The notes under the pieces were generated by a model. The model did not search any database. It was given only the letters and a program-made list of their open reading frames with translations, and was not told where the DNA came from. From an uncultured Chlamydiales bacterium (GTDB lineage: Bacteria; Chlamydiota; Chlamydiia; Chlamydiales; FEN-1388), in assembly GCA_963826935.1 (NCBI GenBank), contig CAWGYH010000002.1, positions 1,288,028 to 1,352,027 of the forward strand: a stretch of DNA of 64,000 nt. The letters are read 5' to 3'. The translations under genes were made by a program, and so were the position numbers. Every line of letters begins with the position of its first letter. Position 1 is the first letter of the stretch. Positions 21,255-22,832 of the stretch are shown here, piece after piece.

Positions 21255-22832
21255 TTAGTTTCCATCAAGTACTGACACATATGCTCCACAAGAAGCACCT
21301 CCTCCGCCATTATTTTTCCATAAGCTAAACGTGCTGATGTCCAGAATAAATACTGCGCATTGAGGCCCACAGAGCACACCTGAAATAGAGGTGGTAAAAA
21401 ATCCAGCACATGCGATAAGGTTTGTGCAACCACTATCGTAAAGGCCTGTTCCTGTAAGAGTCATGCCATCGTTGAATACGCTTTCTGTAATAAAGCCATA
21501 AAAATTGACCGTTACTGTTCCGTCAAATCGGCTTCTGTCCGCAATAACCAAATCGCTATCTGAACCACTGATGTTGCCATGTATATGTGAATTTTTCAGA
21601 TAGATCATGACTGTAGAGGTTAGGTCCAGCTCTCCAAACAGCTCGCCATTGAAGTAGAGTTCTGGATAGAGACAGATATCGCATAGGTCGCATTCGCTTT
21701 CGATGCAATCAATTCCAGTTATTATAATGTCTCCTGTAATCCTGAATTTGTTAGAAAGACTTTGATATGGATTAAATGAATCTGCAGAGCTGTTTATTGT
21801 CGAAATGGTAAGGCTAGGTCGAATGCCTTCAGGGCCAACAGGCGGGGTCCAAACAAGATTGACAGGCTGATCTGCTTCAGCTGGTTGACAGCCACATCCT
21901 GAAGTAGAACCAATTGTAACCGGCCCAAGTCCAATAATATTGAGTCTGACCAGAGGAATTTCGATAGCGGTAGTATCTTCAGTTGCATAGCATCCACTGG
22001 CTACTAAAATTGTTGGTGTGCAGCAGTTTGTTTGGCAATTGCAGCAGGTCGAATTGTTGTTTATAAAATCTATCGCAGCCTGAATTGTTGAAAAAGGACA
22101 GCCAAGTGTGCCATTTTGATCTTCCACAGACACGAGTGTGCAACCGTCAACGAAAATTTCATTGGAAAGAAGAGGTTGTTGACAGGGGTTGCATTCAGGG
22201 CCTGTAGCACCGGTTGCTCCTGTAGCTCCTGTTGCACCAACGTCTCCTGTTGCACCCGTAGCACCTGTAGCACCAGCGGCTCCCGTAGCACCCGTTGCAC
22301 CAATGGCTCCTGTTGCACCCGTAGCACCTGTAGCAGCAGTGGCTCCCGTAGCACCCGTTGCACCAACGGCTCCTGTTGTTCCCGTTGCACCTGTTGCACC
22401 AGTAGCTCCAGTGGCTCCAGTTGCGCTGGCTGTACCAGCGGGACCTGTTGCACCTGTAGCACCAACGGCTCCTGTTGCACCCGTTGCACCTGTAGCGCCT
22501 GTAGCTCCAGTTGCGCTGGCTGAACCCGCAGGACCTGTTGCACCTTTAGGGCCTGTAGGTCCTATAGGTCCTGTAGGGCCGAAAGCTCCTCTGGGGCCCC
22601 TGTGGCCTGGGTCGCCTTCGTGGCCTCTAGGGCCTCTTGGCCCACGTGGGCCTGTGGGGCCTGGTCGTGGCCTTAGGTTGTCCTGTGCGGGACTGTTAGT
22701 TGCAGAGGTGTCGAAAGATGACGCTTCACGCCTGTTTCGAACTAAATCTTGGGTTTGTGCTTGTTGAGGGGCCGCAGCAAATAATGTTCCTGAAATGGAG
22801 AGCAAAAACAATTGCAGCAGAATGCATTTCAT
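21255..22832 (-). CDS. Collagen-like (Gly-X-Y) triple-helix repeat protein with Cys-rich beta-helix-like C-terminal domain, secreted
   Basis: 525 aa with signal peptide [22 protein letters not shown]. Gly-X-Y tract runs G58-G211. The C-terminal ~310 aa hold about 20 Cys and open with [34 protein letters not shown]. Confidence 0.8.
22200..22661 (-). repeat. Triplet-periodic coding repeat (Gly-X-Y, mostly GAT units)
   Basis: 154 codons with Gly at every third position except three triplets (SAT, SAT, AAT). This creates long shadow ORFs in other frames and on the other strand. Confidence 0.9.

What the first reader, a model, noticed from the sequence alone, without database searches (positions are those of the whole stretch)
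21255..22832. Secreted collagen-like stalk fused to a Cys-rich beta-helix-like head
Seen: a signal peptide is followed by 154 residues (G58-G211, nt 22200-22661) of Gly-X-Y triplets. These open with a Pro/Arg-rich stretch ([40 protein letters not shown]), then about 38 mostly G-A-T triplets with three Gly-less triplets (SAT, SAT, AAT). The ~310-aa C-terminal region has about 20 Cys (CNPC, CCNC, NCC, GCGC, CDLCDIC) and opens with [34 protein letters not shown], which resembles the start of right-handed parallel beta-helix (pectin-lyase-fold) domains. Established: bacterial and phage collagen-like proteins (Scl, BclA, tail fibres) use Gly-X-Y tracts as trimeric stalks presenting a C-terminal head. 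Cys-rich envelope proteins are typical of the disulfide-cross-linked chlamydial outer membrane complex. Inference: this is a trimeric surface fibre or adhesin, co-transcribed with two YVTN beta-propeller proteins. I am not aware of a described collagen-like fibre in this kind of organism. The triplet-repeat DNA is a likely length-variable locus.
Basis: partly seen in the sequence, partly recalled or inferred. Interest (0 to 1): 0.7.

Follow-up and report, generated by a model that had tools for sequence, protein, structure and literature searches.

The report
Chlamydial collagen-stalk fibre with beta-helix head
An environmental chlamydia encodes a secreted protein with a collagen-like stalk and a cysteine-rich head distantly related to phage tail-fibre domains; it is most likely a trimeric attachment fibre, a known kind of bacterial surface protein built here with a head family that no database describes.

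Summary
ORF 21255..22832 (-) encodes 525 aa: a Sec-type signal peptide, a 36-aa linker, 52 in-register triplets (49 start with Gly, 25 are GAT; Pfam Collagen 78.9 bits), a CxxC junction, and a 312-aa head with 21 Cys.

The head matches no Pfam, NCBIfam or PHROG model. An exhaustive HMMER search still found 85 relatives. About 17 share the signal peptide + collagen + head layout, some in tandem arrays and several in Chlamydiae-like contigs. Others look like phage tail-fibre proteins.

AlphaFold models are confident (pLDDT 88 and 91). Fold searches return almost only right-handed beta-helix proteins. The best solved match is the trimeric long tail fibre of Agrobacterium phage 7-7-1, followed by pectin methylesterases. 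TM-scores stay at or below 0.45, and sequence similarity to esterases covers only the N-terminal cap, not the catalytic region.

The Cys clusters are derived loop decorations of one subclade. The gene lies in a ~17-kb lineage-specific block. The link to the two YVTN propellers is local, not conserved. The repeat DNA is degenerate, so it is not a slippage locus, although tract length ranges from 27 to 264 aa across homologues.

Best reading: a disulfide-stapled "lollipop" adhesin, analogous to Legionella Lcl. It is a new variant of a known kind, of moderate interest.

The parts
21255..22832 (-). Complete coding sequence of the collagen-stalk / Cys-rich-head protein (525 aa plus stop).
   Evidence: ORF list. 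Homologues share the same architecture.
22841..22845 (-). Shine-Dalgarno-like AGGGA, 8 nt upstream of the ATG.
   Evidence: Read directly from the sequence.
22770..22832 (-). Sec-type signal peptide, residues 1 to about 21 ([21 protein letters not shown]). There is no lipobox.
   Evidence: Crude hydrophobicity rule. Thirty of 80 family members have such an N-terminus. The cleavage site was not predicted by a dedicated tool.
22662..22769 (-). Polar linker, residues 22-57. No recognisable anchor motif.
   Evidence: No family hit. Composition read from the translation.
22545..22661 (-). Pro/Arg/His-rich start of the collagen tract, residues 58-96, 13 triplets beginning [16 protein letters not shown]-rich start is conserved across the family.
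22194..22544 (-). GAT-rich part of the collagen tract, residues 97-213, 39 triplets of which 25 are GAT. Gly-less triplets lie at 106, 136 and 166 (30-aa / 90-nt period). The DNA repeats are degenerate.
22182..22193 (-). C214-N-P-C217 directly after the last triplet. This is a candidate interchain cystine knot.
   Evidence: Relatives have CC or C pairs at the same junction and at the tract's N-terminal end. The knot function is inferred by analogy with animal collagen cystine knots.
21258..22181 (-). C-terminal head, residues 218-525. It belongs to an undescribed ~300-aa family with a predicted beta-helix-type fold.
   Evidence: 85 relatives. AlphaFold pLDDT 88.3, pTM 0.89. Fold searches. No Pfam or PHROG hit.
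21924..22112 (-). N-terminal cap of the head, residues 241-303 ([16 protein letters not shown]...[11 protein letters not shown]...IIGLG). This is the only part with sequence similarity to pectin methylesterases and to the phage 7-7-1 tail fibre.
   Evidence: Profile against PDB sequences. Sub-threshold Pectinesterase hits in relatives cover profile positions ~5-86 of 298.
22020..22046 (-). Cys cluster 1, residues 263-271 (CCNCQTNCC), in a low-confidence loop.
   Evidence: pLDDT of 66 for head residues 51-60. C263 and C270 are conserved in the Cys-rich subclade only.
21888..21896 (-). Cys cluster 2, residues 313-315 (CGC).
   Evidence: Conserved in the window protein, the L081 ORF and P0002; not Cys in P0003 or P0007.
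21672..21707 (-). Cys cluster 3, residues 376-387 ([12 protein letters not shown]). It flanks the loop where relatives carry long Ser/His/Lys-rich inserts.
   Evidence: pLDDT of 72-76 for head residues 161-180. Conservation and inserts are shown.
20243..21223 (-). Secreted YVTN seven-bladed beta-propeller protein 1, 31 nt downstream, with a GGAG ribosome-binding site.
   Evidence: TIGR02276 at 211.9 bits. Gap and ribosome-binding site.
19209..20207 (-). Secreted YVTN seven-bladed beta-propeller protein 2, 35 nt further downstream. It is 64% identical to protein 1.

Best explanation
The gene encodes a Sec-exported protein that assembles into a homotrimeric 'lollipop' fibre.

Shown:
- A signal-peptide-like N-terminus.
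- A 156-residue collagen-type Gly-X-Y tract.
- A ~310-aa C-terminal head from a conserved family that also occurs in phage tail-fibre-like proteins.
- A conserved architecture in other Chlamydiae-like genomes.
- Cys clusters confined to loops of one subclade.

Inferred:
- Three heads associate side by side, as in the trimeric beta-helical domain of the phage 7-7-1 long tail fibre, and set the register for the three collagen strands.
- The GPR-rich N-terminal triplets clamp the far end of the stalk.
- The CxxC pair at the stalk-head junction and the loop Cys clusters form disulfides in the oxidising periplasm or envelope, stapling the trimer covalently.
- At 0.286 nm per residue the stalk would be about 45 nm long.
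- After crossing the outer membrane, perhaps by type II secretion as for Legionella Lcl, the fibre presents its head away from the cell and binds a surface polysaccharide or glycoprotein of the eukaryotic host (amoeba), mediating attachment.
- The head module was exchanged with phage receptor-binding proteins at some point in evolution.
- The family diversifies by gene duplication, stalk-length change and loop insertion.
For: - Collagen tract: 49 of 52 in-register Gly; PF01391 at 78.9 bits.
- Signal peptide. Signal peptide and Gly-X-Y tract co-occur in the family (17/30 against 3/50, p = 7e-7).
- Same layout in homologues: the L081 ORF, P0002, P0003 and P0004, L168-L170, and four tandem copies in L166.
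- Conserved tract-head junction and GPR-rich start.
- Chlamydial origin of the window: FtsY is 85% identical to Chlamydiales MAGs. Chlamydial origin of relatives: TIGR03076 chlamydial GcvH-upstream protein lies next to the gene in L083 and L171, and L081 has a long-form UvrA.
- Head fold: models with pLDDT 88.3 and 91.3. Foldseek lists are made up almost entirely of right-handed beta-helix proteins. Top PDB hit for the canonical member is the trimeric phage 7-7-1 long tail fibre (E 1.8e-3, prob 0.99), whose residues 177-453 form a beta-helical domain (PMC12796354). The sequence profile also finds that chain and pectin methylesterase N-termini.
- Phage link: N-terminal Mtd_N, BppL_N, Phage_fiber_2 and K1-lyase_C domains in non-collagen members, and an IMG/VR contig copy.
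- Cys pairs at the tract ends in the window and in relatives.
- Functional precedent: Lcl has a signal sequence, a collagen-like repeat region, a trimeric C-terminal head that binds host glycosaminoglycans, and is a T2SS substrate (PMC11162425).
Against: - Trimerisation, disulfide pattern, export across the outer membrane, surface location, ligand and expression are all untested.
- No anchor motif was found: no LPXTG, no autotransporter barrel, no lipobox, and no amphipathic N-terminal helix like that of Lcl.
- Structural matches are weak in absolute terms (TM-score at most 0.45; no PDB hit at E <= 1e-3), so the head may be a divergent solenoid rather than a classical pectin-lyase fold.
- The GAT-rich tract has few Pro or charged residues (8.3% Pro) and three Gly-less triplets, so triple-helix stability is uncertain.
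- The gene is absent from the syntenic position in sister genomes, and no strain-level orthologue was found.
Confidence: 0.55

Rival explanations
1. It is an envelope structural protein rather than a distal adhesin. The Cys-rich head is disulfide-cross-linked into the chlamydial outer membrane complex or periplasm, and the collagen stalk acts as a spacer or strut within or just above the envelope.
For: The head has 21 Cys in 312 aa, with nine positions conserved within a subclade of Chlamydiae-like genomes. No outer-membrane export or anchor signal was found. It is established knowledge that chlamydial envelopes are stabilised by disulfide-cross-linked Cys-rich proteins.
Against: There is no homology to OmcA, OmcB or Pmp. 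Most family members with the same signal peptide + collagen + head layout have only 1-7 Cys, so Cys richness is not intrinsic to the function. The Cys clusters lie in low-confidence loops. A stalk of about 45 nm exceeds periplasmic dimensions.
Confidence: 0.15
2. The head is an enzyme, a carbohydrate esterase or polysaccharide depolymerase of the pectin-lyase fold, carried on a collagen stalk, as in phage tailspikes that degrade capsules.
For: The profile matches the N-terminal cap of CE8 pectin methylesterases (E 1e-4). Pectin methylesterases rank high in Foldseek for the canonical member (prob 0.8-0.92). Two phage-like members also carry K1-lyase_C.
Against: Similarity never extends beyond Pectinesterase profile positions ~5-86 of 298, and all hits are below the gathering score (11-21 bits against 27). 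The window head has no hit at all. The nearly invariant family columns are mostly Gly and hydrophobic residues, with no conserved acidic or basic constellation. No QDT/DFIFG-type motif is visible in the alignment.
Confidence: 0.1
3. It is a remnant or cargo of a prophage, tailocin or contractile injection system: a tail-fibre gene, not a cellular surface protein.
For: The head family occurs in phage-like proteins and on an IMG/VR contig. The collagen region matches many PHROG tail-fibre families. The gene sits in a lineage-specific 17-kb block near a transposase.
Against: The protein has a Sec signal peptide, which virion fibres assembled in the cytoplasm lack. No phage structural, lysis or integrase genes are in the block. 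The PHROG hits are to the Gly-X-Y tract only, and the head alone gives none. There is no match in 50,697 GenBank phage records. Homologues lie among housekeeping genes.
Confidence: 0.04

Closest known systems
Legionella pneumophila collagen-like adhesin Lcl (NF046116; PMC11162425)
   Same: Both have a periplasmic signal sequence, a collagen-like repeat stalk and a C-terminal globular head, giving a 'lollipop' trimer. Both come from intracellular bacteria of amoebae. Stalk length varies between homologues.
   Different: The Lcl head is DUF1566, whereas this head is an unrelated beta-helix-type family. Lcl has a 30-residue amphipathic N-terminal anchoring helix that is not evident here. The NCBIfam score is 65.4 against a cut-off of 500 and covers the collagen part only. 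Lcl is not Cys-rich.
Bacillus anthracis exosporium protein BclA (from my own knowledge)
   Same: Both have Gly-X-Thr-rich triplets (GPT in BclA, GAT here) followed by a C-terminal trimeric head. Repeat number is polymorphic in BclA.
   Different: The BclA head is a C1q/TNF-like jelly roll. BclA is targeted to a spore exosporium by an N-terminal motif, and its Thr residues are O-glycosylated. No sequence relationship exists outside the triplets.
Streptococcus pyogenes Scl1/Scl2 (NF038330, NF038329)
   Same: Both are bacterial collagen-like trimeric surface proteins with a globular head.
   Different: In Scl the head (V domain) is N-terminal and the protein has a C-terminal LPXTG anchor, so the polarity is opposite. 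Scores are 60.8 and 86.2 against cut-offs of 400 and 325. The window protein has no LPXTG.
Long tail fibre gp015 of Agrobacterium phage 7-7-1 (PDB 9rkv; PMC12796354)
   Same: It is the closest solved relative of the head family by both sequence profile (E 0.003-0.006, starting at the beginning of its beta-helical domain) and fold (prob 0.99). It is a trimeric receptor-binding fibre.
   Different: It is a virion protein without a signal peptide or collagen tract and has an extra C-terminal jelly-roll domain. The TM-score is only about 0.31. The window head itself gives no direct PDB sequence hit.
CE8 pectin methylesterases (Pfam PF01095; e.g. Erwinia PemA 1qjv/2ntb)
   Same: Both share the N-terminal cap signature (G..PF.TIQ.AI...I.I..G.Y.E) and a right-handed beta-helix fold class.
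   Different: The catalytic region is not matched. All hits are below threshold, and the window head hits nothing.
Chlamydial Cys-rich envelope proteins and Pmp adhesins (from my own knowledge)
   Same: All are Sec-exported and Cys-rich. Pmps are predicted beta-helical adhesins of Chlamydia.
   Different: There is no homology, no autotransporter barrel and no Pfam Chlam_PMP or OMP hit. A collagen stalk is unknown in those families.

Membership tests
Collagen triple-helix repeat proteins (Pfam PF01391) | A long run of in-register Gly-X-Y triplets that scores above the gathering threshold. | tested here: met
   78.9 bits against 27.2, E 2.4e-22. 49 of 52 triplets start with Gly.
Bacterial collagen-like 'lollipop' surface proteins (Scl / BclA / Lcl type) | A signal peptide for export. 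| tested here: met
   The N-terminus is hydrophobic with no charged residue in its best 10-aa window. This is a crude rule; no SignalP was run.
Bacterial collagen-like 'lollipop' surface proteins (Scl / BclA / Lcl type) | A globular domain adjacent to the tract that trimerises and nucleates the triple helix. | not testable with these tools
   A confident globular head is present, and its closest solved relative is trimeric. No multimer prediction was available.
Bacterial collagen-like 'lollipop' surface proteins (Scl / BclA / Lcl type) | A recognisable cell-surface anchor (LPXTG, an exosporium-targeting motif, or an amphipathic helix). | tested here: not met
   No anchor family or motif was found in Pfam or NCBIfam. 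The protein ends ...AYVSVLDGN, and the N-terminal linker is polar.
Scl2/SclB (NF038329) and Lcl (NF046116) equivalogs | A whole-protein score above the curated cut-off. | tested here: not met
   86.2 against 325, and 65.4 against 500. The matches cover only the Gly-X-Y tract.
Pectinesterase (Pfam PF01095, CE8) | A match above the gathering score that includes the catalytic region. | tested here: not met
   The window head has no hit even at E <= 1. Relatives score 11-21 bits (GA 27) over profile positions ~5-86 of 298 only.
Right-handed parallel beta-helix (pectin-lyase fold) | A three-dimensional fold superposable on known members. | tested here: inconclusive
   Foldseek lists are almost exclusively beta-helix proteins, with prob up to 0.99-1.00. 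TM-scores are at most 0.45, and no PDB hit reaches E <= 1e-3.
Phage tail fibre / tailspike (virion component) | Encoded in a phage structural module and assembled in the cytoplasm (no signal peptide). | tested here: not met
   A signal peptide is present. There are no phage genes in the neighbourhood and no match in GenBank phages.
Chlamydial outer-membrane-complex Cys-rich proteins (OmcA / OmcB) and Pmp autotransporters | Sequence homology to those families; for Pmp, also a C-terminal beta-barrel. | tested here: not met
   No such Pfam or NCBIfam hit. Only the Cys richness is shared.

The most novel reading that the evidence does not exclude
Environmental Chlamydiae have taken over a phage tail-fibre receptor-binding module, fused it to a collagen stalk and a signal peptide, and hardened it with cystine knots and Cys-rich loops. 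The result would be the first collagen-like host-attachment fibres known in the phylum. These fibres would form a fast-evolving family that varies in copy number, stalk length and loops, sits in lineage-specific islands, and helps to set which protist hosts a chlamydia can attach to.
Probability: 0.25. Interest if true: 0.6.

Novelty: new variant of a known kind. Interest (0 to 1): 0.42.

Why it matters
Attachment factors of environmental chlamydiae to their protist hosts are poorly known, and no collagen-like fibre has been described in the phylum in the literature I could search. If this reading is right, it offers three things: a candidate adhesin family with an easily testable architecture; an undescribed ~300-aa beta-helix-type domain family shared between phage receptor-binding proteins and secreted bacterial fibres; and a natural series of collagen stalks from 27 to 264 residues, with and without cystine knots, that could interest bacterial-collagen engineers. 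It does not change any major concept, because collagen-stalk/globular-head proteins are well established in bacteria and phages.

Tried and rejected
- The word-indexed homology search with the head found only one relative, P0001, which turned out to be a mis-called fragment of a 732-aa ORF. The same search with profile A2 gave only 7 hits, probably because collagen-containing candidates swamped the selection.
- Genome-contig scans with the head, with P0007 and with the adjacent 708-aa gene found nothing usable. Alignments A2 and A3 were too divergent for the pattern-based locus search.
- tblastn against GenBank phages with the window head and with P0018 gave no match.
- A metagenome scan for strain-level orthologues found none, so a within-species comparison of repeat length was impossible. 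The exact protein is not in the contig index.
- Rfam on the whole window gave no hit.
- phmmer of the window head against PDB sequences gave no hit.
- Cluster look-ups gave no names or accessions.
- Model coordinates are not exposed, so I could not measure Cys-Cys distances, count rungs or check handedness.
- One search used a wrong reading frame for the L081 ORF. One search corrects it.
- Considered and rejected: pectinesterase membership, a prophage tail-fibre origin for this copy, a simple-sequence contingency locus, and a conserved functional operon with the YVTN propellers.
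Full report
**1. What is in the sequence**

The minus-strand ORF 21255..22832 encodes 525 aa. An AGGGA motif lies 8 nt before the ATG.

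The N-terminus [21 protein letters not shown] behaves as a Sec signal peptide in a crude hydrophobicity test. A polar 36-residue linker follows.

Residues 58-213 (nt 22194-22661) form 52 in-register triplets, and 49 of them start with Gly. The first 13 triplets are Pro/Arg/His-rich ([24 protein letters not shown] ...). Of the next 39 triplets, 25 are exactly GAT. The three Gly-less triplets sit at residues 106, 136 and 166, a 30-residue (90-nt) period. Pfam Collagen scores 78.9 bits, E 2.4e-22.

A C-N-P-C motif follows the last triplet directly. The remaining 312 residues contain 21 Cys.

The antisense ORFs listed inside the tract are repeat artefacts.

**2. The repeat DNA**

The triplets use scrambled synonymous codons. 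Tandem Repeats Finder gives 68% matches at period 9, 80% at period 63 and 87% at period 90. The best self-alignment is 84% at a 63-nt offset. No 9-nt unit is perfectly repeated even twice in tandem, and the longest exact direct repeat is 29 nt.

The tract evidently grew by duplication of 63- and 90-nt units that have since diverged. It is not a simple-sequence slippage locus. Unequal recombination remains possible.

**3. Organism and neighbourhood**

FtsY (26218..27141) is 82-85% identical to FtsY of several uncultured Chlamydiales MAGs.

In those genomes FtsY is flanked on one side by SucC. The window has a DDE transposase inserted between the two genes. On the other side, within 1-5 kb, the sister genomes carry homologues of window genes 7220..8989 and then 1..2517.

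None of the window genes between about 9.0 and 26.2 kb is present in those loci. These genes are:
- an AAA_14/DUF4143 ATPase;
- a 2196-aa PPDK_N + HEAT protein;
- two small secreted paralogues;
- two YVTN propellers;
- the collagen gene;
- two unknown proteins of 708 and 327 aa.

The gene therefore lies in a ~17-kb lineage-specific block. That block contains no phage genes.

The two propellers are 64% identical tandem paralogues with signal peptides. They follow the collagen gene after gaps of 31 and 35 nt, each with a GGAG-type ribosome-binding site. Co-transcription is plausible but unproven.

**4. The head is a member of a real but undescribed family**

The head alone hits nothing in Pfam, NCBIfam or PHROGs and nothing in PDB sequences.

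A word-indexed search found a single relative. That relative proved to be the C-terminal part of a 732-aa ORF with the same layout: a signal peptide, about 33 charged Gly-X-Y triplets, and the same head interrupted by poly-Ser inserts.

The exhaustive HMMER search found 85 cluster representatives at E <= 1e-3, of which 32 were at E <= 1e-10. They fall into two architectures:
- Of 80 that begin with Met, 30 have a signal-peptide-like N-terminus, and 17 of those have a Gly-X-Y tract upstream of a C-terminal head.
- Of the 50 without a signal peptide, only 3 have such a tract (Fisher p = 7e-7). Several of these carry phage receptor-binding N-terminal modules (Mtd_N, BppL_N, Phage_fiber_2) or K1-lyase_C.

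One close relative of a non-collagen member lies on a 102-kb IMG/VR contig beside an endolysin-like peptidase. No copy was found in 50,697 GenBank phage records.

**5. Relatives with the collagen layout are cellular and at least partly chlamydial**

P0002 and P0003 lie in a shared syntenic block. The next gene matches only TIGR03076, 'chlamydial GcvH-like protein upstream region protein' (E 1.6e-66), and is followed by a GcvH-like gene and DnaA.

The L081 copy lies beside an 1866-aa UvrA that matches the long-form model PRK00635. P0004 lies among housekeeping genes and was seen on eight contigs.

L166 (from a 316-kb contig) carries six collagen genes in a cluster, and four of them have this head. 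L163 and L165 carry adjacent pairs.

None of these loci has YVTN propellers, so that association is peculiar to the window.

**6. Fold of the head**

AlphaFold2 with a 46-sequence alignment gives pLDDT 88.3 and pTM 0.89 for the window head. The model is made of many short strands plus the helix at TIQAAIDF.

For the window-head model:
- Foldseek against the PDB returns no significant hit. The best is PemA at E 0.22 and TM 0.30. Even so, nearly every entry is a right-handed beta-helix protein.
- Against viral models the best hits have E 3e-4 and TMq 0.43-0.45. They are uncharacterised phage proteins, T7-like tail-fibre proteins, giant-virus 'right handed beta helix' proteins and 'collagen-like' proteins.

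A second model, for a canonical family member without the Cys loops (P0018, pLDDT 91.3), ranks as follows:
- first, the Agrobacterium phage 7-7-1 long tail fibre (9rkv_M/N, E 1.8e-3, prob 0.99);
- then pectin methylesterases (prob 0.80-0.92, TM 0.31-0.35);
- then other beta-helix enzymes and tailspikes.

In the published structure that fibre is a trimer whose residues 177-453 form a beta-helical domain (PMC12796354).

The family profile finds the same chain, starting at residue 179-183, and the first ~50 residues of several pectin methylesterases (E 1e-4).

All Pectinesterase Pfam hits in relatives are below threshold (11-21 bits against 27) and confined to profile positions ~5-86 of 298. The nearly invariant columns are mostly Gly and hydrophobic residues.

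My conclusion is that a beta-helix-type head is supported at the level of fold class, and that its nearest known relative is a trimeric phage fibre domain. It is not a pectinesterase, and there is no sign of a conserved catalytic site.

**7. The cysteines**

The three low-confidence stretches of the model coincide with the Cys clusters [21 protein letters not shown] and ...SGC....

Nine window Cys positions (231, 263, 270, 313, 315, 376, 381, 384, 387) are conserved in the L081 ORF (41 Cys) and in P0002 (37 Cys). The same positions are not Cys in P0003 or P0007. P0003 is syntenic with P0002 yet has only 6 Cys. Cys richness is therefore a derived decoration of one subclade.

In that subclade the loop flanked by C376-C387 carries long Ser/His/Lys-rich inserts, as expected for an exposed, fast-evolving loop.

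Relatives also have CC or C pairs at both ends of the collagen tract and inside it (HHCCKEGPRG, GCCGPQG, NPLCCDIFVD). The window has C214-x-x-C217 at the junction. By analogy with the interchain cystine knots of animal collagens (my own knowledge), these would staple the three chains. That would require an oxidising, extracytoplasmic location.

**8. Stalk variation**

Across homologues the tract measures 27 to 264 residues. Its composition runs from GAT-rich (the window, P0003, P0046) to highly charged. The GPR-rich start and the junction ...PL...FVDGxT are conserved. The stalk behaves as an evolvable spacer between fixed ends.

**9. Interpretation**

The best-supported model is a secreted homotrimeric lollipop fibre: a stalk of about 45 nm (156 residues at 0.286 nm each) carrying a beta-helix-type head, covalently stapled by disulfides, and used for attachment to a host-surface ligand.

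The closest functional analogue is Legionella Lcl. It has a signal sequence, a collagen-like repeat region that varies in length between strains, and a trimeric C-terminal head that binds host glycosaminoglycans, and it is secreted by the T2SS (PMC11162425). It has a different head and a different anchor.

The rival explanations are set out separately: an envelope strut, an enzyme on a stalk, and a phage remnant. Each has specific evidence against it.

I found no publication on collagen-like proteins in Chlamydiae.

**10. Verdict**

The beta-helix claim holds at fold-class level only. The claims about the YVTN partnership, the outer membrane complex and length variability are weak or only local.

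This is a new variant of a known kind, of moderate interest (0.42).

Noticed in passing
window 9000-26216: A ~17-kb block is absent from the syntenic position in sister Chlamydiales MAGs, where FtsY is followed within 1-5 kb by homologues of window 7220..8989 and 1..2517. The block holds an AAA_14/DUF4143 ATPase, a 2196-aa protein, two small secreted proteins, two YVTN propellers, the collagen gene, and the 708-aa and 327-aa unknowns.
   Followed up: partly
window 10754-17344 (-): A giant 2196-aa protein has a pyruvate-phosphate-dikinase-type PPDK_N domain (residues 648-996) and C-terminal HEAT-like repeats. It has no close relatives in the sister loci and may be an effector.
   Followed up: no
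window 27748-29094 (-): A DDE transposase (DDE_Tnp_1_6 / DUF772) is inserted between ftsY and sucC, which are adjacent in all sister genomes examined.
   Followed up: partly
window 17797-18375 (-) and 18629-19198 (+): Two divergently oriented small proteins with signal peptides are distant paralogues (27% identity, E 5e-8). Neither has any family hit.
   Followed up: partly
window 19209-21223 (-): The two YVTN seven-bladed propellers are 64% identical tandem duplicates. Both have signal peptides and both end with ...SPNCG. No homologous collagen-head locus has such neighbours.
   Followed up: partly
window 22070-22767, both strands: Several long ORFs overlap the collagen tract in other frames or on the other strand (for example 22189..22767 +, PVAPVAP...). 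They are artefacts of the triplet repeat.
   Followed up: yes
L166 2026-11539: One 316-kb metagenomic contig carries six collagen-repeat genes in a cluster. Four have the same head family, which suggests a tandemly expanding gene family.
   Followed up: partly
L167 11327-15641: A Chlamydiae-like contig (kdsB-pyrG-ruvX arrangement) holds further collagen-repeat genes without this head, next to an F-box protein. Collagen-like proteins may be common in environmental chlamydiae.
   Followed up: no
L168 3285-4529, L170 1439-3412, L082 8001-10265: Relatives carry Cys pairs at the ends of the collagen tract and single Cys inside it (HHCCKEGPRG, GCCGPQG, GHCGERG, NPLCCDIFVD). These resemble collagen cystine knots.
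   Followed up: partly
L081 9122-11320: The database gene call for P0001 starts 293 codons too late. An antisense 78-aa ORF and a wrong-frame 102-aa ORF were called over the collagen and poly-Ser region, so automatic gene calling may undercount this family.
   Followed up: yes
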